A stretch of DNA of 64,000 bases from Betaproteobacteria bacterium (GTDB lineage Bacteria; Pseudomonadota; Gammaproteobacteria; Burkholderiales; SG8-41), in assembly GCA_021732605.1 (NCBI GenBank), contig JAKFUS010000029.1, positions 89,300 to 153,299 on the forward strand. Reading direction: 5' to 3'. This document shows, one piece after another, positions 31,958-46,087 of this stretch. Position numbers and translations under genes: made by a program. The notes under the pieces were generated by a model that saw nothing but the letters and a program-made list of their open reading frames with translations, searched no databases and was not told the DNA's origin. How positions within the stretch are numbered: the first letter of the stretch is position 1; every line of letters begins with the position of its first letter.

Positions 31958-32572
31958 TCAGGCCAGCCAGGGCCGCTCGGCGTGGTAGTTGTTTTCGAAG
32001 GACTCTATGCCGGGGAGTTGCTCCAGCACCAGCCCGATGTCGTCGAGCCCCTTCAGCAGGCGTTCCTTGTACACCGGGTCAATGGTGAAGGGATGCGCCG
32101 TGCCCTCGGTGTCGGTGACAGTCTGCGTTGGCAGGTCGATGGCCAGTGTTGCGCCCGGATTGGACTGCAGCTGGTCGCGCAGTCCGCGGCAGATTTCCTC
32201 GGGCAGGGTCACCGGCAGCATGCCGTTCTGCAGTTCATTGGCGTAATGGATGTCGCCGAATGATGGCGCGATCACCGCCCGGATACCGTAGTCGAGCAGC
32301 GCGTAGACCGCGCCTTCACGCGACGAGCCGCAGCCGAAGTTGGCGCCGGCGACGATGATGCCAGCATGGCGGAACGCAGGTTTGTTCAGCACGAAGTCGG
32401 GTTTTTCCTGTCCGGCATTGTCGAAACGCACGTCATGAAACAGGTAGCCCTGATACCCGGCTTCGGCGCTGCGCAGTTTGCGCAGGAAACGCACGGGGAT
32501 GATGCGGTCGGTGTCGATATTGGCCATGTCGATCGGTGCGGCAATGGCGGTCAGTGTCGTGAACGGTTTCAT
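31958..32572 (-). CDS. Aconitase-family dehydratase small subunit (LeuD-like)
   Basis: 204 aa with GANFGCGSSREGAV. It lies 4 nt downstream of the large subunit. Confidence 0.85.
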   Translation of the reverse strand: MKPFTTLTAIAAPIDMANIDTDRIIPVRFLRKLRSAEAGYQGYLFHDVRFDNAGQEKPDFVLNKPAFRHAGIIVAGANFGCGSSREGAVYALLDYGIRAVIAPSFGDIHYANELQNGMLPVTLPEEICRGLRDQLQSNPGATLAIDLPTQTVTDTEGTAHPFTIDPVYKERLLKGLDDIGLVLEQLPGIESFENNYHAERPWLA

Positions 32573-32576
32573 GGAT

Positions 32577-33995
32577 TCAGACTCCTCCCGCCAGCAGTTT
32601 GCGCACGTCAGTGACGTGGCCGGTGATCATCGCCGCGGCGGCCATCGCCGGGCTCATCAGGTGGGTGCGCGCGCCCTTGCCCTGGCGGCCTTCAAAATTG
32701 CGGTTCGACGTTGACGCACAGCGCAGGCCCGCAGGCACGGTGTCGCCGTTCATCGCGGCACAACTCGAGCAGCCGGAAGCGCGCCACTCGACCCCCGCGT
32801 CGAGGAAGATGCGGTCGAGGCCTTCCGCTTCGGCTTGCGCCTTAAGCGCGGTGGAGCCCGGCGATACCCAGGCCGGGATCATCGATTTGCGGCCTTTCAG
32901 CACGGCGGCAGCGGCGCGCAGGTCTTCAATGCGGCCGTTGGTGCAACTGCCGATGAAGGCGCGGTCTATGCGGATGTCGGTCAGCGCCATGCCGGGTTTC
33001 AAGTCCATGTAGGCGAGGGCCTGTATGGCATGCGCGCGTTGATTCGGGTCGCCCAGCGTTTTCGGATCAGGGATGTGGCCCGAAACCGGCAGCGCTTCCT
33101 CAGGACTGGTACCCCAGGTCAGCATCGGTTCGAGTTTGGTGGCGTCGAGAGTGACGCTGCGATCAAAACGCGCGCCGTCGTCGGTCGGCAGTGTGCGCCA
33201 TTGCGCCAGCGCGCGATCCCAGTCCGCGTCCTTGGGTGCGTATTCACGGCCGTGCAGATATTGGTACACCGCATCGTCAGGCGCGATCATGCCGGCGCGA
33301 CCGCCGGCTTCAATCGCCATGTTGCACACGGTGAGCCGGCCTTCGACCGTCAGCCCGCGAATCGCCGAACCGGCGAACTCGATGACGTGGCCAGTGGCGC
33401 CTGCTGTGCCGATTTTGGCGATGATCGCCAGCACGATGTCCTTGCCGGTGACCTGCGAGCCCAACGCGCCGTTGACCACCACCTGCAGCGTTTTCGGCCG
33501 CTTCAGCCACAGGCATTGCGTGGCGAGGATTTGTTTCAATTGTGATGCGCCGGTGCCGAAGGCGTAGGCGCCCAATGCACCGTGCGTGGAGGTATGCGAG
33601 TCGCCGCAGGTGATGGTCAGTCCCGGTTGCGTGATGCCGAGTTCGGGTCCGATGACGTGCACGATGCCCTGGCGCGCGTCGTCGATACCGAAATGCGCGA
33701 CCTGGTTGACGCGGCAGTTCTCCTCAAGTAAACGAATCATGTGCCGCGCATCGGCATCCTCGGCGCCGTCCACGCCACGTTCGCGGCCGACGGTGGGCAC
33801 GTAATGGTCGGCGACGGCAAAAGTCTGCCGCGGCTTGCGCACGCTGCGCCCCTCCTTGGCCAGCGCGCCGAAGGCGTGGAACGAACCCTCATGGACAAAA
33901 TTGCGGTCGATGTGCAGCAGCGCATCGCCACCCGGTTTTTCGAGGATGACGTGGCTGTCCCAGATCTTGTCGAACAGGGTGCGCGGCTTGGTCAT
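32577..33995 (-). CDS. Aconitase-family dehydratase large subunit (LeuC-like)
   Basis: 472 aa. The Fe-S ligand regions GSCTNGR and GCSSCAAMNG are present. The genomic context is catabolic, not leucine biosynthesis. Confidence 0.88.
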   Translation of the reverse strand: MTKPRTLFDKIWDSHVILEKPGGDALLHIDRNFVHEGSFHAFGALAKEGRSVRKPRQTFAVADHYVPTVGRERGVDGAEDADARHMIRLLEENCRVNQVAHFGIDDARQGIVHVIGPELGITQPGLTITCGDSHTSTHGALGAYAFGTGASQLKQILATQCLWLKRPKTLQVVVNGALGSQVTGKDIVLAIIAKIGTAGATGHVIEFAGSAIRGLTVEGRLTVCNMAIEAGGRAGMIAPDDAVYQYLHGREYAPKDADWDRALAQWRTLPTDDGARFDRSVTLDATKLEPMLTWGTSPEEALPVSGHIPDPKTLGDPNQRAHAIQALAYMDLKPGMALTDIRIDRAFIGSCTNGRIEDLRAAAAVLKGRKSMIPAWVSPGSTALKAQAEAEGLDRIFLDAGVEWRASGCSSCAAMNGDTVPAGLRCASTSNRNFEGRQGKGARTHLMSPAMAAAAMITGHVTDVRKLLAGGV

Positions 33996-34031
33996 TAATT
34001 TATCAATTAAATCAAATAGTTATAAATGATC
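33996..34031 (-). repeat. AT-rich intergenic block, copy C
   Basis: complement(34004..34023) is ATAACTATTTGATTTAATTG, identical to 15260-15279. It ends 8 nt before the LeuC-like ATG. Confidence 0.75.
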
Positions 34032-34036
34032 GCCGG

Positions 34037-34942
34037 TTACAGCCCGGCGCGCTGGTCTTCCGGCAGGCCGTAGCGGTTTTCCAGTTCCTGGATCTCGGGC
34101 AGGCCGGCGATGTCGGTGAACTGTTTGAAATTCGCCACCTTGTCGCGCATGTGCGCAATCGAGCCGGTTTTTTTCAGTTCGCGCAGCAGGTTCTGCATCG
34201 CCGGGATCGCCGCGAGCATGACCCAGTTCGGATAAATCGCAATTTTGAAACCGAGTTTGCCCAGTTCATCCGCGGGCAGGTCCGGCGTTTTGCCGCTGGA
34301 GGCCATGTTGTAGAGCAGGGGCACACCCTTGAAGCGTTTTGATACGACCTCGACCTGCTCACGGCCGACGGGCGCCTCAATAAACAACACATCGGCCCCC
34401 GCTTCGCGGTAACGCTCGCCGCGCTCCAGTGCCGCCTCCATGCCCTCGATGGCAATGGCATCGGTGCGGGTGATGATGACGAAATCGTCGTCGCGTCGCG
34501 CATCGCAGGCGGCCTTGATCTTGGCGACCATTTCCGCAGTCGGGATCACGCGTTTGCCGGCGAGATGGCCGCAGCGCTTGGGCCAAGCCTGGTCTTCGAT
34601 GTGCACGCCGGCGACACCGGCCTTTTCATAGTCGCGGATGGTGCGCCGGGTGTTGATCGGATTGCCGTAACCGGTGTCGGCATCGGCGATCACCGGCAGA
34701 CCGGATGCGTCAGCGATGCGCCCGGCGTTGTCGATCATTTCATTGGCGGTGAGCAGACCGACGTCGGGCATGCCGAGGCGCGTCAGGCTGGTGCCGAAGC
34801 CGGTCATGTAGACCGCTTCGAAGCCCTCCATTTTCACCATGCGTGCGGCGAAGGCGTCGGCGACGCCCGGTACGACCAGGCAGCCGGGGCGTGCCAGCAG
34901 CGCGCGCATGCGGGCGGTCAGACGTTCATCGGGTTTGGCCAT
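34037..34942 (-). CDS. Isocitrate lyase / PEP mutase superfamily enzyme (methylisocitrate-lyase / carboxyvinyl-carboxyphosphonate-phosphorylmutase-like)
   Basis: 301 aa. Motifs DADTGYGN and HIEDQAWPKRCGH are present. Confidence 0.85.
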   Translation of the reverse strand: MAKPDERLTARMRALLARPGCLVVPGVADAFAARMVKMEGFEAVYMTGFGTSLTRLGMPDVGLLTANEMIDNAGRIADASGLPVIADADTGYGNPINTRRTIRDYEKAGVAGVHIEDQAWPKRCGHLAGKRVIPTAEMVAKIKAACDARRDDDFVIITRTDAIAIEGMEAALERGERYREAGADVLFIEAPVGREQVEVVSKRFKGVPLLYNMASSGKTPDLPADELGKLGFKIAIYPNWVMLAAIPAMQNLLRELKKTGSIAHMRDKVANFKQFTDIAGLPEIQELENRYGLPEDQRAGL

Positions 34943-34977
34943 CAGATATTCCAGTCAGTAAAGTAATACGAATTGTT

Positions 34978-35955
34978 TTATTCAAACTTCAAATCAAGTT
35001 TTTTCACCAGCGCCTGCCACTGCACCAGTTCTTCGCGGATGCGTTTGCTGAATTCTTCGGGTGAACTGGCGCCGGGCTCGGTGCCGAGGCCGCGAAAGCG
35101 GTCGCTGACCACGGTGTTGCCCATCACTTTGCGGATCGCTGCATTGAGCTTGTCGATCACCGGTTTGGGGGTGCCCGTCGGCGCCAGCAGGCCGAGCAGC
35201 GTGGCCGCCTGATAACCCTTGTAGCCGAGCTCATCCAGCGTCGGCACGTTGGGCAGTGCGCCTGACCGCTGTGTGGTGGTGACTGCCAGCACTTTCAGCC
35301 GTCCGTCCTTGATGTGGCCGATGGATGCCGCGAGCTGGTCGACCATGGTTTCAACCTGGCCGCCGAGCAGCTCCGACAGTGCCGGCCCACTGCCCTTGTA
35401 CGGCACATGCAGCACCTTGACGCCGGCCATCTGCGCAAAGAGTTCAATCGCAAAATGATTGGTGGTGCCTGCGCCCGCCGAAGCCATGGTCACCTTGCCC
35501 GGCCGCGATTTGGCCGCGGCAATCACGTCGGCGACCGAATTGAAACCGGATTTCGGGCTGGCCAGCAGCACCAGCGGCACCGCCTGTACCGTGGAGATCG
35601 GCGCGAAATCCTTCAGTGAATCGTAGGGCAGGGATTTGAAAATGACCGGGTTCACCGACAGCGGTCCGCTGGAGCCCACCAGCAGCGTGTAACCGTCGGG
35701 CGTGGATTTCGTCACCAGCGACGCACCGAGATTGCCGCCGGCCCCTGGCCGGTTGTCGACCACCACGGTCTGTCCCAGCGCTTCACCCAGCGGCGGGGCG
35801 ACGATGCGCGCGGAAATATCGACGTTGCCGCCGGGCGCGTAAGGCACAACGATGCGGATCGGGCGGGTCGGAAACTGATCTGCAGCGCCAACGGGTGTTG
35901 TGAATGTGGCAAATACCATTGTGGCAAACACCAGCATGACCTTGATTTTTTTCAT
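34978..35955 (-). CDS. Bug/TctC-family substrate-binding protein
   Basis: 325 aa with a signal peptide, then FPTRPIRIVVPYAPGGNVD. A GGAGGAG Shine-Dalgarno precedes the start. Confidence 0.9.
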   Translation of the reverse strand: MKKIKVMLVFATMVFATFTTPVGAADQFPTRPIRIVVPYAPGGNVDISARIVAPPLGEALGQTVVVDNRPGAGGNLGASLVTKSTPDGYTLLVGSSGPLSVNPVIFKSLPYDSLKDFAPISTVQAVPLVLLASPKSGFNSVADVIAAAKSRPGKVTMASAGAGTTNHFAIELFAQMAGVKVLHVPYKGSGPALSELLGGQVETMVDQLAASIGHIKDGRLKVLAVTTTQRSGALPNVPTLDELGYKGYQAATLLGLLAPTGTPKPVIDKLNAAIRKVMGNTVVSDRFRGLGTEPGASSPEEFSKRIREELVQWQALVKKLDLKFE

Positions 35956-35980: not shown

Positions 35981-36036
35981 ATGTGCGGCTCATTCTGTGC
36001 GGCTCATTTTGCGCGACGCATTTTGCGCGGCTCAAC
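35981..36036. repeat. Four tandem degenerate 14-mers (ATGTGCGGCTCATT / CTGTGCGGCTCATT / TTGCGCGACGCATT / TTGCGCGGCTCAAC)
   Basis: Read directly in the 76-nt spacer between the PrpD-family stop and the Bug start. The last unit overlaps the stop codon. Confidence 0.7.
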
Positions 36037-37417
36037 CTGCTGCACCCTCCAGGAGGACTTCCTTTGGGGCGCGTTTTGCTCCGGCGCCAGTATCGTAATC
36101 GACATTGGCGAGTTTTTCGGTGCTCCACAACTGTTTCAGCAGCGAGGCCGCGGCAGCCTTGCCCAGCACCGGCTCGGCGAGTTCCGTGAATTTGTCGTTC
36201 AGTTCCTCGTCGCTCAGTGGCAGCTCCGGATCGCCTTTGCGGTACGGCTGGAAGTACTCGAGCTTGCGGCCGTCGGTGAGTTCGATTTGCACGCGCGATT
36301 CGCGGCGCTTGGGATAACCCGCGGAGATTTCCGGGTCGGCGATCGGCTCAATCTTTTTGAGCAGCGTGCGTATGTCGGGATCACTCAGGTGGTCGGGGTC
36401 GAAAGCGTTCAGGCGCACGCTGCCGCGCACCAGCGCGTGCGCGACGGTGTACTGGATGCTGAACTTGGCCTGGTATTCGCCCTCGGGATTGTTGTTGTCG
36501 ATGATGTTGAGGCCGGCTTTATAGGTGTGCAGCTTGATGTGCTTGATGTCCTGGTGGCTGAACTTGTGCTCTTTCTGCAGATGCAGCGCGCCATCGATCG
36601 ACGGGAAGGTGTGGCCGCAGCAGCCGTGGTTTTTGAAGGTCATCTGCTTGATGTGGTAGTCAATACCGAGGCCTTTTGTGGCTTTGCTCCAGTCCGGGTT
36701 CACACTCATCGCGTTGCCGAAGCCGACTTCACCTTCGATGATGTCCAGCGCGCCGGTAACCCCTTTGACCGCCATCATCGCCGCCCAGCAGCCGGCATCG
36801 GCCGCGTGGCCGCCGTGCAGCGGCTTGGTCATCGCCTGTGAACGGAAGGCCTGCTGCAGGCCGGAGGCAAAACTGCCGACGGTCGCCAGCGCGTGCATGA
36901 ACTGTTCCTTGTTTGCGCCGAGGATGGTGGCCGCCGCGGCCGCCGCGCCGAAGGAGCCGACGGTGCCGGTGGTGTGCCAGTAATTGTAATGCGAAGGCAT
37001 GATGGCCTCACCGATGCGGGTGGAGATTTCATAACCGACAATCACGCCGCGCAGGAATTGGTCGCCCGAGGCGCCGCTGGACTGTGCCGCAGCCAGCGCC
37101 GCGGAAATCACCGGGCTGCCCGGGTGGTAACCGGCATCGCGGTAGATGTCGTCGAATTCCACTGAATGCGAAGCGGCGCCGTTGATCAAGGCGGCTGCGC
37201 GCAATGTGGCGCGACGGCCGGTGGCCAGACGGGCGCGGCCGCGGTCGAGGTCCTCGGCAAACGCCTGCTCCATCAAGGTCGCGGGAGCGACGATGCTGCC
37301 GGGCAACAGCGCCGCGTACCAGTCGATCACCGCGCGTTTGGCGTGGTGGATGACCTCAGGCGGCAGCTTGGAGGTTTGTTCCTTGATTGCGTAATCGGCC
37401 AGTTGTTGCATCAGCAT
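36032..37417 (-). CDS. MmgE/PrpD-family protein, paralogue 1
   Basis: 461 aa. It has the family-typical N-terminus (ADYAIKEQTSKLPPEVIHHAKRAVIDWYAA) and length. Confidence 0.85.
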   Translation of the reverse strand: MLMQQLADYAIKEQTSKLPPEVIHHAKRAVIDWYAALLPGSIVAPATLMEQAFAEDLDRGRARLATGRRATLRAAALINGAASHSVEFDDIYRDAGYHPGSPVISAALAAAQSSGASGDQFLRGVIVGYEISTRIGEAIMPSHYNYWHTTGTVGSFGAAAAAATILGANKEQFMHALATVGSFASGLQQAFRSQAMTKPLHGGHAADAGCWAAMMAVKGVTGALDIIEGEVGFGNAMSVNPDWSKATKGLGIDYHIKQMTFKNHGCCGHTFPSIDGALHLQKEHKFSHQDIKHIKLHTYKAGLNIIDNNNPEGEYQAKFSIQYTVAHALVRGSVRLNAFDPDHLSDPDIRTLLKKIEPIADPEISAGYPKRRESRVQIELTDGRKLEYFQPYRKGDPELPLSDEELNDKFTELAEPVLGKAAAASLLKQLWSTEKLANVDYDTGAGAKRAPKEVLLEGAAG

Positions 37418-37465
37418 GATGGAATCTCCTCGTGAGTGCGCTACATACTTTCCTGATGGTTTCGT

Positions 37466-39541: not shown

Positions 39542-39564
39542 GAAGGTCAAGGTCAAAAGCGTTT

Positions 39565-39667
39565 GCCACAGAGGACACAGAGAGCACAGAGAACTTCAAA
39601 AACAAGAGAACGCGAACGGCATTTGAGCTTTTCGGGTTTTCTCTGTGAACTCTGTGTCCTCTGTGGC
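39565..39667. repeat. Long imperfect inverted repeat built from 9-nt-period CACAGAG units (about 29-bp arms, about 43-nt loop)
   Basis: The left arm GCCACAGAGGACACAGAGAGCACAGAGAAC (39565-39594) pairs with the right arm TTCTCTGTGAACTCTGTGTCCTCTGTGGC (39639-39667), with 27 of 29 positions complementary. It lies between the ACAD stop and the CoA-ligase start. Confidence 0.85.
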
Positions 39668-39681
39668 TAGGGTTTAGGGTT

Positions 39682-40836
39682 TTAGCTCTTCGGAGGGCGC
39701 TGTGAAAAGCTGCGTTCAAACACGCCTTCGGCAATGCGGTTTTTGAGGATTTCGATCGAGCCGCCGGCGATCATCCAGCCGCGGCATTTGCGGAAGCAGT
39801 ATTCAACCAGCGTCTCATCGGTGTAACCCATGCCGCCCATGATCTGCATCGCTTCATTGCAGATGTCGAAGCCGGCCTGGTTGCAGAAGGCCTTGGCGAC
39901 GGCAGTGTCGTCGGCCGACGGAATGCCGTTGTCGGCGTTCACGGCGGCCTTGTAGAGCAGCAACTGGCCGGCGTCGAGTTTCATTTTCATGTCGGCGAAT
40001 TTCCACTGGATGCCCTGGAATTCACACAGCAGCCGCCCGAACTGCTTGCGCTGCATCGCCCATTCACGCGCGATGTTGTAGGCGTAACGACCGAAGGCCA
40101 GCGAACGCGCGGTGTTGCCGATGCGCTCGACGTTGAAGCCGGCGATCTGTTTTTTGAAACCGCCTTCCTTCAGCATCACGTTCTCGGGACCAACGTAGAC
40201 GTTGTCGAGATAGGTCTGCACCCAGTCTTCGCCATTGAGGAATTTCGACGGCGCACCCTGCTTGAAACCCTGCGCGTCGCGCGGAATCAATACCGAGCCG
40301 ATGCCGCCGACACCGGGACCGAAACGCACATAGGTCAACATTACCGAGGCGTACGAGGCGTGGGTCTGGAATACTTTGACGCCGTTGATGCGGTAACCGT
40401 CGCCGTCGGGCGTGGCGCTGGTTTTGAGGTCGGTCACCGCCGAGCCCGCTTCCGGCTCGGTCATGCCGACGGTGATCAGCGATTCACCGGCGAGGATCTT
40501 GTCGAGGTAGCGTTTTTTCTGATCAGGCGTGCCGTACTCGGCGAGCACGCGCACCGGGCCGAAGTTGCCGGCCTGAATCACGTCGGCGCTGCGCGGGCAC
40601 ACCGAAGCGATGGTTTCGATGGCGATGATGGCATCCATCAGCGAGCCGCCCTGGCCGCCGTCTTCTTCCTTCATGGTGATGCCCATCAGACCCTGTTCGG
40701 CCATCAGCTTGCCGACATCCCAGGGATGTTCTTCCTGGTGTGCGCGGGCGAGCGCGCCGTCGCGCAAATGGCGCTCGGCAAAACCGCGCACGGCGTCGCG
40801 GAACTGTTCCTGCTCGGGGGTAAATTTGAAATCCAT
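39682..40836 (-). CDS. Acyl-CoA dehydrogenase
   Basis: I use the internal ATG at 40836 (MDFKFTPEQEQFRDAVRGFAE). The ACAD N, middle and C domain pattern is present, with C-terminal GGSIEILKNRIAEG. Confidence 0.9.
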   Translation of the reverse strand: MDFKFTPEQEQFRDAVRGFAERHLRDGALARAHQEEHPWDVGKLMAEQGLMGITMKEEDGGQGGSLMDAIIAIETIASVCPRSADVIQAGNFGPVRVLAEYGTPDQKKRYLDKILAGESLITVGMTEPEAGSAVTDLKTSATPDGDGYRINGVKVFQTHASYASVMLTYVRFGPGVGGIGSVLIPRDAQGFKQGAPSKFLNGEDWVQTYLDNVYVGPENVMLKEGGFKKQIAGFNVERIGNTARSLAFGRYAYNIAREWAMQRKQFGRLLCEFQGIQWKFADMKMKLDAGQLLLYKAAVNADNGIPSADDTAVAKAFCNQAGFDICNEAMQIMGGMGYTDETLVEYCFRKCRGWMIAGGSIEILKNRIAEGVFERSFSQRPPKS

Positions 40837-40969
40837 GATATGAAACTTTGGCAAAAACTGCGGGTTGGAGAGTCGTGTATTTTACCGCGTGCTGCTCAGT
40901 GGGTCAGCCTTTCAGCCTCATCCGCATGCTGGAGCAAATGCGGGCATGGCCTGTGGCAGAACGCCGGTA

Positions 40970-41944
40970 TTACTGCGCCTGCAGGCCTGCTGCCTTGACC
41001 ACTTTGCCCCATTTCGTGACTTCCTCTTTGAGGAAGCGGGCGAATTCTTCCGGCGTTCCCGTCACCTGTTCGGCACCTGAGCGAACGAGCAGGTCCTGCA
41101 CGCGGGGCGAAGCCAGCGCGGTGTGGATGGCCTGGTTGATTTTGAGCACGGTGTCGCGTGGCGTTCCTGCCGGTGCAAACATGGCGTTCCATCCGCCGGC
41201 TTCGTAGCCCGCAACGCCGGCTTCGTCGATCGTCGGTACATTCGGCAATGTCTTTGAACGTTTCAGCGAACTGATGCCGAGCGCGCGCAGCTTGCCTGAT
41301 TCGGCCGGCGGAACGGCCGCGGCCACCGGAGCGAAGGTCATGTGCACATGCCCGCCCATGGTTTCCGCGACGGCGGGTGCTGCGCCTTTGTAGGGAATGT
41401 GGCCGATTTTTGCGCCGGACAGCATGTTGAACAGCACCAGCGCCAGGTGATTCGAGCTGCCGATACCGGCGGATGCCGAGTTCAGCGTGCTTGGATGCGA
41501 ACGGTCCAGTGCGATCAGGTCTTTGACCGATTTTGCCGGCAGCGAGGGATGCACCACCAGCACGTTGGCCTGGTTGACGATCAGGCAGACCGGTGCGAGG
41601 TCGGTCAGCACGTTGTAACCCAGCTTGGGATACACCGCCGGACTGCTCGATATGGCGGTGGTGCCGTAGAGCAAGGTGTAACCGTCTGCTGCTGCGCGCA
41701 CGACGGATTCAGTGCCGATATTGCCGCTGGCGCCCGGGCGGTTGGCCACCAGCACGTTCTGTTTCCACGCCCCGGTCATGTGCTCGGCGACGGCGCGAGC
41801 GATGAGGTCTGCAGATCCGCCGGCCGGGAACGGCACGATCATCGTAATGGGTTTCTCGGGGTAGCCCTGGGCGCCGGCGGCGCCGATCCACGCGCAAAGC
41901 AGCAACGGAACAAGCAAAGTGCGAAGCAGGGTGCGAAACGGCAT
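40970..41944 (-). CDS. Bug/TctC-family substrate-binding protein
   Basis: I use the internal ATG at 41944, preceded by GAGGAA (MPFRTLLRTLLVPLLLCAWIGAAGAQGYPEKPITMIVPFPAGGSAD). Confidence 0.88.
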   Translation of the reverse strand: MPFRTLLRTLLVPLLLCAWIGAAGAQGYPEKPITMIVPFPAGGSADLIARAVAEHMTGAWKQNVLVANRPGASGNIGTESVVRAAADGYTLLYGTTAISSSPAVYPKLGYNVLTDLAPVCLIVNQANVLVVHPSLPAKSVKDLIALDRSHPSTLNSASAGIGSSNHLALVLFNMLSGAKIGHIPYKGAAPAVAETMGGHVHMTFAPVAAAVPPAESGKLRALGISSLKRSKTLPNVPTIDEAGVAGYEAGGWNAMFAPAGTPRDTVLKINQAIHTALASPRVQDLLVRSGAEQVTGTPEEFARFLKEEVTKWGKVVKAAGLQAQ

Positions 41945-41978: not shown

Positions 41979-42881
41979 TCAGGGATACATCGCCCAGCCG
42001 ACACGACTGGTTTCTGCCTTGAAGAAATGGCCATCGGTGCTGGTGACAAACAGCGTGGTCATGTCCGGCCCGCCGAAACAGCAATTGGTCGGACGGTTAG
42101 CGGCGACCGGATGCGTTTCGAGCACCCGCCCCGTTGGCGTGAATACATAAATCATCGGTCCCGCACCGGCGACTTCCCAGCCGGCGGTGGCGACGATGTT
42201 GCCTTCCGCATCGAGGCACATGCCGTCGATGCCGCGGTGGATGTCGCGATGGTCTTCACCCCAGGTAAACAGCGTTTGGTACGGACCGAGGCTGCCGTCG
42301 TCCTTGATCGGATAGGCGCGCAGCTCGCGTGCTACGCCGCGGGTGAAACTGCTTTCCGCGACATACAAGGTGCTTTGATCCTGAGATATCAGGATGCCGT
42401 TGGGCTGGGTGGTGTCGGACAAGACCTGGGTGATTGAATAGCTGCCGTCTTTTTGTGGATCGAGCCGATACACCAGGCGTTTGTCGAGTGTCTGCTTTTC
42501 GGTTTTGTCGACGTTGCCGTCGTTCCACGGATTGGTGAACCAGATGCGGCCCTTGCGATCGATCGCGAGGTCGTTCGGGGTGTTCAGCCGTTTGCCATCG
42601 ACCTTGTCGGCGATCACCACGTTTTTTCCGTCCGGATCAAAGCGCATCACGCTGCGTCCACCCTGGCAGCAGCCGAACAGCCGGCCCTGCGCGTCAAAAG
42701 CGAGGCCGTTGACGCGGTTGAGGCCGGTGCGCCACGGCGTGATTGCGTTGGTCTTCGGGTCGCAGCGGAAAATCGTGTTGGCGTGGATGTGGGTGAAATA
42801 CAGGTATTCGCCGTCCCACACCGGGCCTTCGGTGATCGGAATCCCTGCGGGCTTTTTCAGCAGTTCGAATTTCCACGCCAT
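41979..42881 (-). CDS. SMP-30/gluconolactonase/LRE-family lactonase-like protein
   Basis: I use the internal ATG at 42881 (MAWKFELLKKPAGIPITEGPVWDGEYLYF). Beta-propeller repeats carry NGLAF, PNDL, PNGI and GIDGMC motifs. Confidence 0.82.
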   Translation of the reverse strand: MAWKFELLKKPAGIPITEGPVWDGEYLYFTHIHANTIFRCDPKTNAITPWRTGLNRVNGLAFDAQGRLFGCCQGGRSVMRFDPDGKNVVIADKVDGKRLNTPNDLAIDRKGRIWFTNPWNDGNVDKTEKQTLDKRLVYRLDPQKDGSYSITQVLSDTTQPNGILISQDQSTLYVAESSFTRGVARELRAYPIKDDGSLGPYQTLFTWGEDHRDIHRGIDGMCLDAEGNIVATAGWEVAGAGPMIYVFTPTGRVLETHPVAANRPTNCCFGGPDMTTLFVTSTDGHFFKAETSRVGWAMYP

Positions 42882-42903
42882 GATGTTTTCCTTCCGTGCC
42901 TGC

Positions 42904-44322
42904 TTATGCTTTGAGCAGCGTGCGGAGCTTGGTGATGTTGCCCACTTTCTCCAGCCCCCACACTGCATCGCAGAGTTTGCGCGCGCGCGACTTGCCGAGG
43001 ATCGGTTCCATCAGGTGGTAGCACTTCTCGTCCACCTGGGCGCGGGTCATCGGGTTTTGCGCCGTGCCGAGCACCGCCTTGACGTGGTTGCGCAGCACGC
43101 GGCCGTCCTTCAGCTTCAGTTCGATGATGCCCTGACGCGACGGCATGGCGGCCGTCAGCGCGTCGTCGCCGTAGAGCGTGATGCGGCGGCGCAGGGCGAG
43201 TACCTTCTTGTCGGTCATGCGCTTCTCGTCGTGCGAGGACTTGAAGGTGACAATGCCGTCGATCAGCATCACTGCGCACATATGCTGCATGCAGATGTCG
43301 GGCATGTTGCGGTTGTCGGTGGTGTTTGCGGCCTGGTGCGCGACGCGGATCGTCAGCTTGTCGACGTCAGCGGCCTTCAGCTTGTGCATGCGGATCAGTT
43401 CGAGCAGGCCGTCGAGCGGGGCCTGGATCGGAGAGCCGACCGACCAGCGCTTGATGTTGGTGTTCATGATCTCCCAGGTCTTGCCGAGATCCTTGATCAG
43501 GCGCTCGGGCATCGGTTTTTTGCCGATGCGGCGGGTCTCGTCATAGGCGACGAAGAAATTGCGCTCGCCGGAGAACACGTCTTCAACCGCGCTGAAACCC
43601 GAGGCCACCATCGCCGCGGCTGCGGTGCCGTTACGCGCCGGCATGCCGCCGAAGTCGAAGGCTTTTTCAATGTGTTCTTCGTCGCGCATCCAGCACGAAA
43701 TACCCGAACACTGCTGCGCGGTGTACGACAGCGCATGGCGCATGCCGGTGTAATCGAGGCCGGCGAGCATTGAAGCCGCAGCGGCTGCGCCGAAGCTCGG
43801 GCCGAAGCTGTGCGTCGAATGTCCGGCCTGGCGGAAATCATAGGGATGCAGCGCCAGGTTCAGGCGTGCGCAGAGGTCATAGCCCAGGGCCACAGCGCGC
43901 AGCAGCTGCGTGCCGTTCGATTTCTCGCGTTCGCCCATGGCCAGAGCGGCGGGGACAATCGCACAACCCGGATGCGACAGCGAAGGCGCGTGCGAATCGT
44001 CGGTCTCGTCGGCGTGCGCCAGCATGCCGTTGATGTGGGCCGCTTGTTCAGCATTGGTCAGGACATTCGAGCCGATGACGATGGCCTGCGGTTTACCGCC
44101 CAGAGTTTTGGCATAAGCAATGGCTTTTTGGCCGGGCAAGAGGCGCGAACCGGAGACCATCGCAGCGATGGTGTCGAGCAGATGGTGCTTGGTTTTTTCA
44201 GCGACGGCTTTCGGCAGCGGCTGCTTGGCTGCGCCGGCCATGTAAGTGGCCAGCGTTTTCATCAGCGGCGACACCGCCGTTTTGGCATTGGATTTGGATG
44301 ATTTCGATTTTTTGCTGCTCAT
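42904..44322 (-). CDS. MmgE/PrpD-family protein, paralogue 2
   Basis: I use the internal ATG at 44322, which forms an ATGA overlap with the SDR stop (MSSKKSKSSKSNAKTAVSPLMKTLATYMAG...). The lysine/serine-rich N-terminal tail is unusual for the family. Confidence 0.82.
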   Translation of the reverse strand: MSSKKSKSSKSNAKTAVSPLMKTLATYMAGAAKQPLPKAVAEKTKHHLLDTIAAMVSGSRLLPGQKAIAYAKTLGGKPQAIVIGSNVLTNAEQAAHINGMLAHADETDDSHAPSLSHPGCAIVPAALAMGEREKSNGTQLLRAVALGYDLCARLNLALHPYDFRQAGHSTHSFGPSFGAAAAASMLAGLDYTGMRHALSYTAQQCSGISCWMRDEEHIEKAFDFGGMPARNGTAAAAMVASGFSAVEDVFSGERNFFVAYDETRRIGKKPMPERLIKDLGKTWEIMNTNIKRWSVGSPIQAPLDGLLELIRMHKLKAADVDKLTIRVAHQAANTTDNRNMPDICMQHMCAVMLIDGIVTFKSSHDEKRMTDKKVLALRRRITLYGDDALTAAMPSRQGIIELKLKDGRVLRNHVKAVLGTAQNPMTRAQVDEKCYHLMEPILGKSRARKLCDAVWGLEKVGNITKLRTLLKA

Positions 44323-45095
44323 GGCATCAAGCCTCCGCCGTTGATATGGATGGATTGTCCGGTGATGTAACGCGCGTCGGGTCCGCACAACACGCGCACC
44401 ATCGCGGCGATTTCTTCAGGCGCGCCGCGCCGGCCCGCGGGCGGCAGCGTCACACGGTGATCGGGGCGGGGTGGTGCGCCGGGCAGGCCGCGCACGGTTT
44501 CCACGGTGCCGGGCACCACGCAGTTCACCGTGATGTTGCTCGCGGCGAGATCCAGCGCCACCGCCTTGGTCATCGCGGCGAGGCCACCCTTGGCCGCCAC
44601 CACATGCGAACGATTCAATGCGCCCTTGTGACCGGTGAGGCCACCGATGTTGACCACGGCGCCGCCACCGGCCTTGACCAGATGCGGCAGCGCGGCCTGT
44701 GTCGTCAGGAACGCGCCGTCGAGCACGATCGAGGTCACGCGCTTCCATTCTTCAAAGGTGATTTTGTCGAACGGCGTCTCGGCGCGGATCGCCGCGTTGT
44801 TGACCACCATGTCGATGCGGCCGAACTGCTTCACGGTTTCGGCAACGAGTTGCGCAACCTGTTTCGGATCGGTGACGTCGGCGATGTACAGCGCAGCCTT
44901 GCCGCCGGCTTTTTTGATCATCGCCATGGTTTCCTCGCCGGCTTCACGCGAGGTGTTGGCGTTGACCATGACGGTCGCGCCGCCTGCGGCCAGCGACAGT
45001 GAAATACAGCGCCCGATATTGCGCGCGCCGCCGGTGACCAGCGCGACCTTGCCGGCGAGTTCATCGCCGGGCCGCATGCCTGCTGAGTGAGTCAT
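44319..45095 (-). CDS. Short-chain dehydrogenase/reductase-fold protein with a non-canonical catalytic region
   Basis: 258 aa. TGGARNIG and NNAA motifs are present. Where S...YxxxK is expected, the sequence reads VVNIGGLTG...NRSHVVAAK (by-eye alignment). Confidence 0.85.
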   Translation of the reverse strand: MTHSAGMRPGDELAGKVALVTGGARNIGRCISLSLAAGGATVMVNANTSREAGEETMAMIKKAGGKAALYIADVTDPKQVAQLVAETVKQFGRIDMVVNNAAIRAETPFDKITFEEWKRVTSIVLDGAFLTTQAALPHLVKAGGGAVVNIGGLTGHKGALNRSHVVAAKGGLAAMTKAVALDLAASNITVNCVVPGTVETVRGLPGAPPRPDHRVTLPPAGRRGAPEEIAAMVRVLCGPDARYITGQSIHINGGGLMP

Positions 45096-45128
45096 TAAAT
45101 TCCCTTTAAAAACAATTAGTTATTGGAT
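45096..45128 (-). repeat. AT-rich intergenic block, copy D
   Basis: complement(45107..45123) is ATAACTAATTGTTTTTA, identical to 13636-13652. complement(45103..45117) is AATTGTTTTTAAAGG, identical to 54738-54752. The block fills the whole 20-nt Bug-SDR spacer. Confidence 0.7.
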
Positions 45129-46087
45129 AATCCCGATTCGCGCACCAGCTTGCCCCATTTCGCCACCTGAACATTCAGATAGGTCGTGAATTCCTGCGGC
45201 GTGGTCCAGGTCAGTTCCGCGCCCTGTGCCGCGGCGCGGTCTTTCATGTCGGCGAGCGAGATCACGCGCTGCATCTCGCGGCCGAGGCGTTCGATCACCG
45301 CGCCCGGGGTGGAGCGCGGCACCATCACGCCGTTCCAGGCATTGACATCAAAGCCGGGCAGTCCGGATTCGGCGACGGTCGGAATATCGGGCAGCGCGGC
45401 CGAACGTTTGAGCGAACCGACCGCGATGGGGCGCGCCCGGCCGCCTTTGACAAAAGGCAATGCCGCCGGCAGCGAAGCGAAGGTGAACTGGGTTTCTCCG
45501 GCGACGACGGAGGTCAGCTGCCCGCCGGTGCCCTTGTACGGCACATGCACAATATTGATTTTGGCCATCGACTTCAGCAGCTCGCCCGACAGATGCGCCG
45601 TGGCGCCGGTGGTACCCGCGGCGTAATTGACTTTGCCCGGGCGTGCCTTGGCGTAGGCGATCAGCTCCTGCACGTTTTTCACCGGCAGGTTGTTGTTGAC
45701 CAGCAGCACGCCCGGAAACAGCGCGAACAGGCTGACGCGTTCGAAACTCTTCACCGTATCGTATGGCAGTTTTTTGTGCAGGCTGGGCATCACCGAAAAA
45801 CTGGTGTGCGTATAAAGAATGGTATGGCCGTCGGGCACGGACTGCGAGACGATTTCCGCGGAAATCAGTCCGCCGCCGCCGGGCCGGTTGTCGATGACCA
45901 CTTGCTGGCCGAGACCCTCGCCCATCGCCTGCGCAAGCAGGCGCGACATGATGTCGGTGGTGCCGCCGGGTGCCGAGATGACCACCATGCGGATAGGCCG
46001 GTCAGGATAGGCCGCCGCGACCGGCAGCGCGACACTCGCGGCCAGTGCGCAGGCAATGCTGCGCACAACATGCAGGGGCTTGATCAT
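45116..46087 (-). CDS. Bug/TctC-family substrate-binding protein
   Basis: I use the internal ATG at 46087, preceded by GAGGAG (MIKPLHVVRSIACALAASVALPVAAAYPDRPIRMVVISAPGGTTD). Confidence 0.88.
   Translation of the reverse strand: MIKPLHVVRSIACALAASVALPVAAAYPDRPIRMVVISAPGGTTDIMSRLLAQAMGEGLGQQVVIDNRPGGGGLISAEIVSQSVPDGHTILYTHTSFSVMPSLHKKLPYDTVKSFERVSLFALFPGVLLVNNNLPVKNVQELIAYAKARPGKVNYAAGTTGATAHLSGELLKSMAKINIVHVPYKGTGGQLTSVVAGETQFTFASLPAALPFVKGGRARPIAVGSLKRSAALPDIPTVAESGLPGFDVNAWNGVMVPRSTPGAVIERLGREMQRVISLADMKDRAAAQGAELTWTTPQEFTTYLNVQVAKWGKLVRESGLSNN

What the first reader, a model, noticed from the sequence alone, without database searches (positions are those of the whole stretch)
31958..46087. 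Regulator-less 12-gene unidirectional catabolic array combining two PrpD-family enzymes, an aconitase-type dehydratase, an ICL/PEP-mutase-family lyase, a CoA ligase/ACAD pair, a lactonase/SDR pair and three Bug binding proteins
Seen: all genes from 46087 down to 31958 are on the minus strand with short or overlapping junctions (ATGA at 44319-44322, a 4-nt LeuC/LeuD gap). No transcription factor, TctA/TctB membrane component or terminator-like hairpin is visible, apart from the long inverted repeat at 39565-39667.

Established, by family:
- MmgE/PrpD proteins dehydrate, decarboxylate or isomerise substituted di- and tricarboxylates.
- LeuCD-like enzymes hydrate the resulting enoates.
- The ICL/PEPM family cleaves 2-substituted malate or isocitrate analogues.

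Inference: this is a methylcitrate-cycle-like route for an unidentified branched or hydroxylated polycarboxylate or its lactone, taken up through TTT systems. The mixture of CoA-dependent and CoA-independent steps does not match any pathway I can name.
Basis: partly seen in the sequence, partly recalled or inferred. Interest (0 to 1): 0.6.

Follow-up and report, generated by a model that had tools for sequence, protein, structure and literature searches.

The report
Modular substituted-dicarboxylate catabolic gene array
Twelve same-strand genes in an uncultured freshwater Burkholderiales bacterium are a patchwork of three reusable enzyme modules plus spare binding proteins, most likely for breaking down branched succinate-type acids; no enzyme is characterised, but the logic resembles the methylsuccinate pathway described in 2025.

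Summary
The array is real. Twelve minus-strand genes span 31958-46087, with junctions from -4 to 125 nt. No regulator or TctA/TctB lies nearby.

Corrections to the observation:
- PrpD2 sits between the SDR and the lactonase.
- CorA and an HI0933-like gene continue the run.
- The inverted repeat is a dispersed REP-like element.

It is not the methylcitrate cycle, and LeuCD is not the housekeeping enzyme. Canonical prpB, prpC-prpD and leuC-leuD-leuB-asd lie on other contigs.

Synteny over about 100 related loci, and in cultured bacteria, resolves three modules that recur independently:
1. An atypical SDR with PrpD2.
2. PrpD1 with an ADP-forming acyl-CoA synthetase and an IVD-type acyl-CoA dehydrogenase.
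3. A PDP/DML/MICL-type lyase with a LeuCD paralogue.

The lactonase and Bug2 are genus-specific additions.

PrpD1 keeps all His/Tyr epimerase residues of iminodisuccinate epimerase and methylsuccinate isomerase. Module 2 therefore parallels Msi-Ict-Mcd (Gonner 2025), which also explains the mix of CoA-dependent and CoA-independent steps. None of the enzymes is orthologous to a characterised one, and the substrate is unknown.

Verdict: a new variant of a known kind, of moderate interest.

The parts
45116..46087 (-). Bug1: TctC-family periplasmic binding protein, first gene of the array
   Evidence: PF03401, 230 bits. ATG at 46087 follows GAGGAG. Orthologues lie at the same place in the genus. 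In other genera a 56-62% relative sits between PrpD2 and ACAD.
44319..45095 (-). Atypical SDR: Ser->Gly and Tyr->Val at the classical catalytic positions, with a conserved His one residue upstream
   Evidence: adh_short_C2, 179 bits. Scores just under the FabG subfamily cut-off. The motif GG(L/M)TGH..R(S/A)HV..AK is conserved in all orthologues. It is also kept in the Pacificitalea homologue that sits next to a PrpD2 homologue.
42904..44322 (-). PrpD2: MmgE/PrpD-family protein of the one-base type (Phe at the epimerase Tyr position), with a Lys/Ser-rich N-terminal tail
   Evidence: Pfam N- and C-terminal domains. The alignment to IDS epimerase keeps His, Glu, His, His, Lys and Lys but has Phe for Tyr145. 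Forms its own clade (100/100) with a C11 paralogue and Pacificitalea and Caballeronia proteins. Its start overlaps the SDR stop.
41979..42881 (-). SMP-30/gluconolactonase-fold protein (putative lactonase); a genus-specific accessory gene
   Evidence: PF08450, 159 bits. Nearest solved structures are gluconolactonases at low score. Present in 9/13 genus-level loci but only 1/26 loci of other genera, and there on the opposite strand.
40970..41944 (-). Bug2: TctC-family binding protein; a variable accessory gene
   Evidence: PF03401. Absent from several congeners: L001, L002, L003, L004, L010.
39682..40854 (-). FAD acyl-CoA dehydrogenase with the catalytic Glu at the IVD/LCAD position (E243). The MCAD Tyr-Glu is replaced by Ala-Gly (362-363).
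   Evidence: Three ACAD domains. Alignments to 5OL2 and 5AF7 show YEG->AGG and E243 in NVERIG. Conserved in the Comamonas and Acinetobacter orthologues, 60-61% identity. IVD base logic is from PMC12369846. The desulfinase Arg84 is Asp here.
39565..39667 (.). REP-like palindromic element: 29-nt arms made of three CACAGAG nonamers, 45-nt loop, in the ACAD-ACS spacer
   Evidence: -59.8 kcal/mol, z = -10, no T-run. At least 6 dispersed copies in the genome. The same spacer in relatives holds unrelated palindromes or none.
37466..39556 (-). Fused alpha-beta ADP-forming acyl-CoA synthetase, with phosphohistidine motif SHTGAMAG (His267)
   Evidence: CoA_binding_2, Succ_CoA_lig and ATP-grasp_5 domains. 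Best solved relative is 4-hydroxybutyrate-CoA ligase [ADP-forming], 8WZU. Motif position. Adjacent to PrpD1 homologues in Comamonas, Acinetobacter, C. necator and C. metallidurans.
36032..37417 (-). PrpD1: MmgE/PrpD-family protein of the two-base (His/Tyr) epimerase type
   Evidence: H84, E87, H98, Y144, H148, K198 and K262 align to IDS epimerase H85, D88, H99, Y145, H150, K198 and K266. All are invariant in orthologues. Forms a clade (99/100) with homologues that in most of the loci examined sit beside an ADP-forming synthetase and/or a matching ACAD, separate from E. coli PrpD, IDS epimerase and the Msi-like protein.
34978..35955 (-). Bug3: TctC-family binding protein, usually paired with the lyase gene
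   Evidence: PF03401, 261 bits. Bug3-PEPM adjacency holds in 14/17 genus-level loci and 8/31 others.
34037..34942 (-). ICL/PEPM-superfamily C-C lyase with the catalytic loop KRCGH (Cys124)
   Evidence: PEP_mutase, 175 bits. Below the PrpB equivalog cut-off: 279.9 against 354.4. Best solved relatives are petal death protein 1ZLP, 2,3-dimethylmalate lyase 3FA3 and methylisocitrate lyases. 36-39% identical to E. coli PrpB (tblastn and blastp), while a 71% PrpB lies on C40.
32577..33995 (-). LeuC paralogue: aconitase-family hydratase large subunit, PRK12466 type
   Evidence: Scores 695 bits on PRK12466 and 651 bits on TIGR00170. The C19 copy scores higher (799 and 768 bits) and sits in leuC-leuD-leuB-asd. 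58-59% homologues lie near PEPM homologues on Rhizobium, Neorhizobium and Sulfitobacter plasmids.
31958..32572 (-). LeuD paralogue: the small subunit
   Evidence: Aconitase_C; TIGR00171 at 204 bits. 44% identical to the C19 LeuD.
29710..31904 (-). CorA Mg2+ channel and HI0933-like flavoprotein. They continue the same-strand run but are probably unrelated.
   Evidence: Pfam. Junctions of 53 nt and -10 nt. Syntenic with LeuCD throughout the genus and in L017.

Best explanation
The array is a vertically inherited, lineage-specific chain of three enzyme modules plus interchangeable orphan Bug (TctC) binding proteins. It handles substituted C4-dicarboxylates or tricarboxylates.

Module 2 (ACAD, ADP-forming acyl-CoA synthetase, PrpD1) is the anchor and works like Msi-Ict-Mcd:
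- PrpD1 inverts the stereocentre of a free 2-substituted succinate-type acid by a His/Tyr two-base mechanism.
- The synthetase makes the CoA thioester of the accepted isomer at the cost of ATP.
- The IVD-type dehydrogenase, whose active site has room at C3, oxidises it to the substituted fumaryl- or maleyl-CoA.

Module 3 (LeuCD paralogue, PDP/DML/MICL-type lyase) works like dimethylmaleate hydratase + dimethylmalate lyase, or like aconitase + PrpB. It hydrates a substituted maleate or aconitate and cleaves the resulting substituted malate into a 2-oxo acid (or glyoxylate) plus a shorter acid.

Module 1 (atypical SDR, PrpD2, and in this genus a lactonase) converts a related precursor, possibly a lactone.

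Shown: the domain families, the catalytic residues and the independent recurrence of each module. Inferred: the reaction order, that the modules share one substrate class, and uptake through Bug proteins docking to one of the five distant TctAB systems. The substrate is unknown.
For: Module 2:
- PrpD1 orthologues keep the synthetase upstream in 25/32 loci of other genera and the ACAD in 24/29.
- In cultured bacteria 50-54% PrpD1 homologues sit beside the same synthetase, with gene order rearranged: Comamonas endophytica, Acinetobacter LoGeW2-3, C. necator C39 and C. metallidurans CH34. Comamonas and Acinetobacter also carry a 60-61% ACAD orthologue.
- These proteins form one clade at 99/100 support.
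- PrpD1 has all seven residues of IDS epimerase and Msi.
- The ACAD has E243 at the IVD base position and AGG for YEG.
- The synthetase keeps its phosphohistidine motif.
- Precedent: the Msi gene always sits next to the Mcd gene, and Msi acts on the free acid only (PMC12290011).

Module 3:
- The lyase has the KRCGH loop, and its best solved relatives are PDP, DML and MICL.
- LeuCD and PEPM homologues are co-located on Rhizobium rhizoryzae, Neorhizobium and Sulfitobacter plasmids.
- 5 of 8 PEPM paralogues in this genome lie within 3 kb of an aconitase-family gene.

Module 1:
- The SDR (45%) and PrpD2 (47%) homologues are adjacent in Pacificitalea, next to TctABC.
- The odd SDR active site is conserved.

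Linkage of the modules:
- In other genera PrpD2 is retained in 17/25 loci, PEPM in 14/25 and LeuC in 11/20. They are always on the same strand, although the genes between them turn over.
Against:
- The flanking housekeeping genes (purEKC, corA) are equally syntenic. Retention of the three modules side by side may therefore reflect a quiet chromosomal neighbourhood, not shared function.
- No distant genome was found that joins all three modules.
- Nothing in the array removes CoA or isomerises trans to cis between module 2 and module 3.
- No enoyl-CoA hydratase or CoA-ester lyase is present.
- C. necator C39 and CH34 have the PrpD1-synthetase pair without an ACAD in the stretch seen.
- Enzyme functions are inferred from residues and neighbours only.
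Confidence: 0.5

Rival explanations
1. One reading: all twelve genes form one operon encoding one dedicated pathway, methylcitrate-cycle-like, for a single branched or hydroxylated polycarboxylate or its lactone.
For: - All twelve genes are co-directional with short junctions, one a 4-nt overlap.
- There is no internal regulator.
- The promoter scan finds fewer sigma-70-like sites than shuffles do.
- The full order is kept in several congeners, for example L018 and L013.
Against: - The lactonase is found in 1/26 loci and the SDR in 7/22 loci outside the genus. Bug2 is missing in several congeners.
- Congeners carry an opposite-strand Bug gene plus MgtC, MBL-fold and histidine-phosphatase genes between PrpD1 and Bug3. 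They carry Bug + GGT between PEPM and LeuC.
- There are 115- and 125-nt gaps, and an AT-rich spacer before LeuC.
- The PrpD proteins are not of the dehydratase clade.
- No citrate-synthase-type condensing enzyme is present.
Confidence: 0.15
2. The modules are functionally unrelated neighbours. Three or more separate 'Bug + enzymes' units for different substrates happen to lie head to tail in a stable chromosomal region of a genome crowded with such units.
For: - The genome holds about 200 Bug, 18 PrpD-family, 8 PEPM, 8 aconitase-family, 9 ADP-forming synthetase and 15 ACAD genes. Chance juxtaposition is therefore easy.
- Each module has its own Bug gene.
- Each module occurs alone in distant bacteria, and no distant locus unites them.
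- The flanking purEKC and corA genes are conserved in the same way.
Against: - Order and strand of PrpD2-ACAD-ACS-PrpD1...PEPM...LeuCD persist into other genera, while the genes in between are replaced.
- PrpD-family + PEPM + aconitase-family triads recur at other loci of this genome (C5, C14) and in R. rhizoryzae. This hints at a functional tie between a PrpD-type enzyme and module 3.
Confidence: 0.3
3. The genes are known housekeeping or described pathways that were mis-read: leucine biosynthesis LeuCD, the methylcitrate cycle (PrpB/PrpD), or the itaconate/methylsuccinate cluster itself.
For: - LeuC and LeuD pass the TIGR00170 and TIGR00171 cut-offs.
- The lyase's best NCBIfam hit is prpB.
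- The PrpD-ACAD neighbourhood is the signature used to call methylsuccinate isomerase.
Against: - leuC-leuD-leuB-asd is on C19 and scores higher.
- prpC-prpD (71% and 70% to E. coli) is on C13, and prpB (71%) is on C40.
- The lyase is below the PrpB cut-off, and both PrpD proteins score 46-58 bits against cut-offs of 458-950.
- No Ict, Ich or Ccl domain is present in the array.
- PrpD1 and the ACAD are only 34% and 29% identical to the ACAD-PrpD-MaoC cluster proteins of C. metallidurans. Closer homologues of those (65% and 79%) lie elsewhere in this genome.
Confidence: 0.03

Closest known systems
Itaconate/methylsuccinate degradation cluster of Pseudomonas aeruginosa (PA0878-PA0883) and Cupriavidus necator: Msi (MmgE/PrpD isomerase), Ict, Mcd (ACAD), Ich, Ccl, and PA0880 2-hydroxyparaconate lactonase (PMC12290011, PMC9875883)
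   Same: - An MmgE/PrpD protein acting on the free acid sits beside a CoA-activating enzyme and an ACAD.
- PrpD1 has the same His/Glu/His/Tyr/His/Lys/Lys set.
- The ACAD base lies at the helix-G position, as in the Mcd-like protein.
- A TctC gene is nearby.
- A lactonase is an optional extra.
   Different: - Activation is by an ADP-forming synthetase instead of a family III CoA transferase.
- There is no itaconyl-CoA hydratase and no citramalyl-CoA lyase.
- PrpD1 and the ACAD fall in clades separate from the Msi-like and Mcd-like proteins (34% and 29% identity).
- The lactonase has an SMP-30 fold, not a glyoxalase fold.
- A second PrpD-type protein, an SDR, a PEPM-type lyase and LeuCD are added.
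Dimethylmaleate hydratase (DmdAB, LeuCD-like) plus 2,3-dimethylmalate lyase (Dml) of nicotinate fermentation in Eubacterium barkeri; Aspergillus niger DML (PDB 3FA3) and carnation petal death protein (1ZLP). The E. barkeri pathway is cited from my own knowledge (Alhapel et al. 2006 PNAS).
   Same: - A two-subunit aconitase-family hydratase is paired with an ICL/PEPM-superfamily lyase carrying the K(R/K)CGH Cys loop.
- PDP and DML are the lyase's best solved relatives.
   Different: - The LeuCD here is of the bacterial LeuC/LeuD type (56% and 44% to the housekeeping pair), not the archaeal/DmdAB type. It scores 74 bits against a cut-off of 109 on TIGR02087.
- No other nicotinate-pathway genes are present.
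- The substrate is unknown.
Methylcitrate cycle (PrpC, PrpD, AcnB/AcnD, PrpB)
   Different: - No PrpC is present in the array.
- The PrpD proteins are about 25% identical to E. coli PrpD and fall outside its clade.
- The lyase is below the PrpB cut-off.
- The genome has canonical prpC-prpD and prpB elsewhere.
Iminodisuccinate epimerase of Agrobacterium tumefaciens BY6 (PDB 2HP0/2HP3)
   Same: It is the best solved relative of both PrpD1 (154 bits) and PrpD2 (106 bits). All seven proposed active-site residues of IDS epimerase are kept in PrpD1.
   Different: - Identity is only about 30%.
- IDS epimerase groups with a different paralogue of this genome (C44) in the tree.
- PrpD2 has Phe at the Tyr145 position.
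Orphan Bug (TctC-family) binding proteins of Bordetella, Cupriavidus and relatives. Their expansion is cited from my own knowledge.
   Same: There are many TctC genes, each next to catabolic enzymes, and far fewer TctAB permeases: about 200 against 5 in this genome.
   Different: In cultured relatives the homologous modules carry a LysR, IclR or GntR regulator. None lies within about 15 kb here.

Membership tests
Methylsuccinate isomerase / methylsuccinyl-CoA dehydrogenase cluster (Msi-Mcd-Ict-Ich-Ccl) | MmgE/PrpD protein with the catalytic set His88, Glu91, His102, Tyr148, His152, Lys202, Lys266 (PA0881 numbering) | tested here: met
   PrpD1 has H84, E87, H98, Y144, H148, K198 and K262, all invariant in orthologues. 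PrpD2 fails this test: it has Phe at the Tyr position.
Methylsuccinate isomerase / methylsuccinyl-CoA dehydrogenase cluster (Msi-Mcd-Ict-Ich-Ccl) | The MmgE/PrpD gene lies next to the ACAD gene | tested here: met
   In the window the order is ACAD-ACS-PrpD1. In other genera PrpD2 directly abuts the ACAD.
Methylsuccinate isomerase / methylsuccinyl-CoA dehydrogenase cluster (Msi-Mcd-Ict-Ich-Ccl) | Family III CoA transferase (Ict), MaoC-type itaconyl-CoA hydratase (Ich) and HpcH/CitE-type citramalyl-CoA lyase (Ccl) | tested here: not met
   None of the 12 products has a CoA_transf_3, MaoC or HpcH/CitE domain. An ADP-forming synthetase takes the place of Ict. A CoA_transf_3 gene does appear in relative L017.
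Methylsuccinate isomerase / methylsuccinyl-CoA dehydrogenase cluster (Msi-Mcd-Ict-Ich-Ccl) | Sequence membership: at least 550 bits with the published Msi HMM, or clustering with PA0881/Q0K3E6 | not testable with these tools
As a proxy, PrpD1 is 34% identical to the PrpD of an ACAD-PrpD-MaoC cluster in C. metallidurans CH34 and lies in a separate clade. A 65% homologue of that protein is on C13.
Methylcitrate cycle (PrpB, PrpC, PrpD) | Scores above the curated equivalog cut-offs for PrpB and PrpD, and a PrpC gene present | tested here: not met
   PrpB model: 279.9 bits against a cut-off of 354.4. PrpD models: 46-58 bits against cut-offs of 458-950. No citrate-synthase-family gene is in the array. 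Canonical prpC-prpD is on C13 and prpB on C40.
3-Isopropylmalate isomerase LeuCD of leucine biosynthesis | Scores above the TIGR00170 and TIGR00171 cut-offs | tested here: met
   651 bits against 560 for LeuC, and 204 bits against 116 for LeuD. An annotation pipeline would therefore name them LeuCD.
3-Isopropylmalate isomerase LeuCD of leucine biosynthesis | Being the genome's best LeuCD and lying in the leuB/asd context | tested here: not met
   The C19 copy scores 799 and 768 bits and lies in leuC-leuD-leuB-asd. The window copy is 56% and 44% identical to it and lies next to a lyase and CorA.
C-C lyase branch of the ICL/PEPM superfamily (MICL, DML, PDP, ICL) | Catalytic Cys in the K(R/K)CGH active-site loop | tested here: met
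   WPKRCGHLAGK with Cys124. It aligns to KKCGH of petal death protein.
Acyl-CoA dehydrogenase (FAD) | Three ACAD domains and a catalytic Glu base | tested here: met
   N-terminal, middle and C-terminal domains are present. The Glu at the MCAD position is absent (AGG for YEG), but E243 sits at the IVD/LCAD helix-G position, 120 residues upstream.
3-Sulfinopropionyl-CoA desulfinase (ACAD fold) | Equivalog score of at least 600 bits, and Arg84 | tested here: not met
   258 bits. Asp aligns with Arg84 of 5AF7, and Glu replaces its Gln at the helix-G position.
Tripartite tricarboxylate transporter (TctABC) | TctC together with TctA and TctB membrane components in the locus | tested here: not met
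   There are three TctC genes, but no TctA on contig C2. The five TctA genes are on C5, C12, C13, C21 and C45.
REP-type repetitive extragenic palindrome | An imperfect palindrome, intergenic, in several dispersed copies | tested here: met
   Arms of 29 nt at 93% complementarity. At least 6 loci in the genome. Presence is variable, and unrelated palindrome families occupy the same spacer in relatives.

The most novel reading that the evidence does not exclude
The conserved core PrpD2-ACAD-ACS-PrpD1...lyase...LeuCD encodes one complete, undescribed oxidative route for alkyl- or carboxyalkyl-succinates. It would be a branched-acid counterpart of succinate -> fumarate -> malate. The steps would be: stereoinversion of the free acid, ATP-dependent thioesterification, and dehydrogenation of the CoA ester. 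CoA would then be released, perhaps by reversal of the ADP-forming synthetase with ATP recovery. A LeuCD paralogue would hydrate the substituted maleate, and retro-aldol cleavage would give a 2-oxo acid or glyoxylate plus a fatty acid. The PrpD1-synthetase pair found in Cupriavidus, Comamonas, Variovorax and Acinetobacter would be its portable entry module.
Probability: 0.2. Interest if true: 0.65.

Novelty: new variant of a known kind. Interest (0 to 1): 0.42.

Why it matters
MmgE/PrpD proteins are abundant: 18 in this 3.5-Mb genome, and present in about 19% of prokaryote species according to PMC12290011. Only four activities are known for the family.

This work defines a distinct, well-supported PrpD1 clade. 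Its members sit next to an ADP-forming acyl-CoA synthetase in most loci examined, and often next to an IVD-type ACAD. The clade occurs in tractable bacteria (C. metallidurans CH34, C. necator, Comamonas, Acinetobacter), so a new substrate for the family is directly testable.

It also shows that 'LeuCD' and 'PrpB-like' annotations in Bug-rich Burkholderiales hide a recurrent catabolic hydratase-lyase pair.

For freshwater carbon cycling, it points to substituted succinates as a nutrient class for abundant uncultured Burkholderiales.

Tried and rejected
2. Loss test in congeners that lack PrpD1 (G010, G023): they also lack CorA and PurK hits. The region is simply missing from those assemblies, so the test is uninformative.
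I used an ACAD-PrpD-MaoC cluster of C. metallidurans CH34 as an unverified proxy.
4. An own-genome candidate itaconate cluster on C7 turned out to be a GCDH-like ACAD plus a separate PrpD-MaoC pair.
5. The desulfinase reading of the ACAD was rejected on Arg84 and the helix-G Glu.
6. The inverted repeat as an operon-specific operator or terminator was rejected: it has dispersed copies, no T-run, and is replaced by unrelated palindromes in relatives.
7. Literature searches for a PrpD + ADP-forming synthetase module, and for dimethylmaleate hydratase, found nothing usable.
8. The promoter/terminator scan was not above shuffles.

Full report
**Observation**

ORF listing and Pfam/NCBIfam scans confirm twelve minus-strand genes between 31958 and 46087. 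In transcription order they are:
- Bug1 (45116-46087)
- SDR (44319-45095)
- PrpD2 (42904-44322)
- SMP-30/gluconolactonase-fold protein (41979-42881)
- Bug2 (40970-41944)
- acyl-CoA dehydrogenase, ACAD (39682-40854)
- fused ADP-forming acyl-CoA synthetase (37466-39556)
- PrpD1 (36032-37417)
- Bug3 (34978-35955)
- ICL/PEPM-family protein (34037-34942)
- LeuC (32577-33995)
- LeuD (31958-32572)

The ATGA overlap and the 4-nt LeuC/LeuD gap are exact. Junctions range from -4 to 125 nt.

- The SDR and the lactonase are separated by PrpD2.
- CorA and an HI0933-like gene continue the same-strand run, with junctions of 53 nt and -10 nt.
- Upstream lies a divergent purE-purK-purC.

No regulator lies nearer than a GntR/FCD gene at 12513-13226. 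The genome (3.48 Mb, 75 contigs) has only five TctA genes, none on this contig, against about 200 Bug paralogues.

**The inverted repeat**

- It is real: 29-nt arms at 93% complementarity, -59.8 kcal/mol, z = -10, and no T-run.
- The genome holds at least six dispersed copies of the same CACAGAG-nonamer palindrome.
- In relatives the same ACAD-synthetase spacer carries unrelated palindromes built of other tandem short units (GTGAACG, GTGAGG, ACAGGAT, GCAAAGGAC and GTGACG types, and a GTCATTCCCGCG...GGGAATGAC type), or nothing.
- 36 of 53 distinct spacers fold at -30 kcal/mol or lower.

It is therefore a REP-like element in an insertion-prone or hairpin-favouring spacer. It is not an operon-specific operator.

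**Known pathways are excluded**

- Leucine biosynthesis: the housekeeping leuC-leuD-leuB-asd cluster is on contig C19. Its LeuC scores higher than the window copy: 799 bits on PRK05478 and 768 bits on TIGR00170, against 673 and 651 bits (the window copy's best hit is PRK12466, 695 bits). The window pair is 56% and 44% identical to it.
- Methylcitrate cycle: canonical prpC-prpD (71% and 70% to E. coli) is on C13, and prpB (71%) on C40. The window lyase is 36-39% identical to PrpB and below the PrpB cut-off. Both PrpD-family proteins score 46-58 bits on PrpD models, against cut-offs of 458-950.
- Desulfinase: the ACAD's best NCBIfam hit is 3-sulfinopropionyl-CoA desulfinase, at 258 bits against a cut-off of 600. 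It has Asp at the Arg84 position of that enzyme.

**Synteny**

The organism belongs to an uncultured freshwater, groundwater and soil Burkholderiales lineage. All relatives are MAGs, and some carry wrong species labels.

PrpD1 orthologues (83-97% identity) occur in 22 of 24 congeners. I mapped the fourteen window proteins onto about 100 related loci.

Within the genus the order is kept but is not fixed:
- Bug2 is often absent.
- Four loci carry a 3.5-kb insert between PrpD1 and Bug3, holding an opposite-strand Bug gene plus MgtC-like, MBL-fold and histidine-phosphatase genes.
- Many loci carry Bug + gamma-glutamyltranspeptidase between the lyase and LeuC.

In other genera (PrpD1 at 65-80% identity), retention near PrpD1 is as follows:

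| Gene | Loci retaining it |
|---|---|
| ADP-forming synthetase | 25/32 |
| ACAD | 24/29 |
| PrpD2 | 17/25 |
| Lyase (PEPM) | 14/25 |
| LeuC | 11/20 |
| SDR | 7/22 |
| Bug3 | 8/31 |
| Lactonase | 1/26 |

At 55-65% identity this arrangement is gone. In L094 and L097, however, an ACAD (61%) and a synthetase (43%) lie downstream of PrpD1 in a different order.

The twelve-gene form is thus genus-specific, built around a stable core. A caveat applies: purEKC and corA are also syntenic in a 76% relative. Retention inside the clade may therefore reflect general chromosomal stability rather than shared function.

**Three modules recur independently in distant, cultured bacteria**

Module 2 (PrpD1, synthetase, ACAD):
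- PrpD1 homologues at 50-54% identity sit beside an 'acetate-CoA ligase family' (ADP-forming) gene in Comamonas endophytica, with a TctC gene, an ACAD at 61% and a LysR regulator.
- The same holds in Acinetobacter sp. LoGeW2-3, with a LysR regulator, two ACADs at 60-61% and an MFS transporter.
- It also holds in C. necator C39 (alpha/beta hydrolase, TctC, IclR-like regulator) and C. metallidurans CH34.
- Gene order differs between these loci.

Module 1 (SDR, PrpD2):
- In Pacificitalea manganoxidans a 47% PrpD2 homologue lies next to a 45% SDR homologue and TctABC, among four other PrpD-family genes.

Module 3 (lyase, LeuCD):
- 58-59% LeuC homologues with LeuD lie within a few kb of 46-60% lyase homologues on Rhizobium rhizoryzae, Neorhizobium sp. 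SOG26 and Sulfitobacter pontiacus plasmids.
- In Sulfitobacter they come with GntR, a TRAP transporter, an isochorismatase-type hydrolase and hydantoinases.

Inside this genome, five of eight PEPM paralogues lie within 3 kb of an aconitase-family gene. Three of nine ADP-forming synthetase hits abut an ACAD.

**Residue-level reading**

PrpD-family proteins:
- Both are closest to iminodisuccinate epimerase among solved structures. 2-Methylcitrate dehydratase is not among the matches at E <= 1e-10.
- PrpD1 keeps H84, E87, H98, Y144, H148, K198 and K262. These align with the seven residues proposed for IDS epimerase and with the set named for methylsuccinate isomerase. All are invariant among orthologues.
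- PrpD2 keeps the His/Glu/His/His/Lys/Lys set but has Phe at the Tyr position. That fits a one-base enzyme (decarboxylase- or dehydratase-like) better than an epimerase.
- In a maximum-likelihood tree, PrpD1 forms a clade (99/100) with the cultured homologues found beside ADP-forming synthetases and/or ACADs. PrpD2 forms a second clade (100/100). Both are separate from E. coli PrpD, IDS epimerase and the PrpD of an ACAD-PrpD-MaoC cluster in C. metallidurans.
- That cluster serves as my unverified proxy for Msi/Mcd. Its proteins are 34% and 29% identical to PrpD1 and the ACAD. Closer homologues of them (65% and 79%) lie elsewhere in this genome.

Other enzymes:
- The ACAD lacks the MCAD-type Glu (AGG for YEG). 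It has E243 in NVERIG, 120 residues upstream. This is the IVD arrangement, which makes room for C3-branched substrates. The feature is conserved in the Comamonas and Acinetobacter orthologues.
- The synthetase keeps its phosphohistidine motif, and its nearest structure is 4-hydroxybutyrate-CoA ligase [ADP-forming].
- The lyase has the KRCGH Cys loop. It is closest to petal death protein, 2,3-dimethylmalate lyase and methylisocitrate lyases.
- The SDR has Gly and Val at the classical Ser and Tyr positions, with a conserved His one residue upstream. The motif is conserved across all orthologues and in Pacificitalea.

**Comparison with the literature**

- Gonner et al. 2025 (PMC12290011) showed that an MmgE/PrpD protein is an (S)-(R)-methylsuccinate isomerase. 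It acts only on the free acid, feeds a stereoselective CoA transferase, and its gene always sits next to that of methylsuccinyl-C4-CoA dehydrogenase.
- De Witt et al. 2023 (PMC9875883) added a lactonase for 2-hydroxyparaconate in the same cluster.

Module 2 reads as the same logic with an ATP-dependent ligase and different, non-orthologous enzymes, and so probably a different 2-substituted succinate. Module 3 parallels dimethylmaleate hydratase + dimethylmalate lyase (my own knowledge of the E. barkeri pathway; tool support), or aconitase + PrpB.

**Verdict**

- The locus is best seen as a modular, uncharacterised substituted-dicarboxylate catabolic array: a new variant of the itaconate/methylsuccinate kind of cluster.
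- Whether all modules serve one route is unresolved. I give about 0.5 to a connected core, 0.3 to unrelated neighbours and 0.15 to a strict single 12-gene pathway.
- No transcript evidence could be obtained.
- Earlier notes of this scan on other genomes describe similar 'substituted succinate' clusters. I treat these as leads only.

Noticed in passing
Related loci only, e.g. L025:9489-9974, L024:9489-9974, L007:7832-8317 (between the synthetase and PrpD1); absent from the window (48-nt spacer at 37418-37465): In 14 related locus entries a roughly 170-aa AhpC/TSA-family ORF fills the synthetase-PrpD1 gap. It has a perfectly conserved in-frame TGA in YRGDW-TGA-RYCRQQL (W-U-x-x-C), so it is probably a selenocysteine peroxiredoxin-like protein. 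The window's genome lacks the gene but has a tRNA-SeC.
   Followed up: partly
window 39557-39681 and the equivalent ACAD-synthetase spacer in L001-L097: The same intergenic spacer is occupied in different species by non-homologous strong palindromes, each built of tandem 7-9-nt units. 36 of 53 distinct spacers fold at -30 kcal/mol or lower. This is either a REP insertion hot spot or selection for a hairpin between the two genes.
   Followed up: partly
window 44319-45095: The SDR lacks the classical Ser and Tyr: it reads GGLTGH...RSHVVAAK. The variant motif is conserved in all orthologues and in the Pacificitalea homologue that neighbours a PrpD2 homologue. It is therefore a functional atypical SDR subfamily tied to PrpD2-type proteins.
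   Followed up: partly
window 33996-34036: The 41-nt PEPM-LeuC spacer is strikingly AT-rich in a 62% GC genome and follows a 6-bp GC hairpin that spans the lyase stop codon. It may be an internal promoter or terminator. It is also the junction where relatives carry insertions.
   Followed up: no
Genome contigs C5:32370-36957, C9:76003-79366, C14:36884-44590: Further PEPM-lyase + aconitase-family pairs occur, on C14 (and more loosely on C5) with a PrpD-family gene nearby. ADP-forming synthetase + ACAD pairs occur on C9 and C10. The genome reuses these two-gene building blocks repeatedly.
   Followed up: partly
window 35981-36036: An earlier first-reader note reports tandem degenerate 14-mers in the PrpD1-Bug3 spacer. 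The spacer folds worse than its shuffles (z = +2.1). It was not studied further.
   Followed up: no
window 53567-54635: A RES-domain protein (53567-54268) with a small upstream partner ORF (54246-54635) looks like a RES-Xre type toxin-antitoxin pair.
   Followed up: no
L018, L046, L056 record titles: Several freshwater MAGs of this lineage are deposited under the name 'Bordetella parapertussis', and others as Streptomyces or Rhodospirillaceae. These look like taxonomic mislabels of uncultured Burkholderiales.
   Followed up: no
L106 (Pacificitalea manganoxidans plasmid pDY25-A, 43318-58571): A 15-kb locus holds five MmgE/PrpD-family genes, TctABC, an SDR, tartrate dehydrogenase and an isocitrate/isopropylmalate-family dehydrogenase. 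This is an unusually dense PrpD-family island in a cultured bacterium.
   Followed up: no
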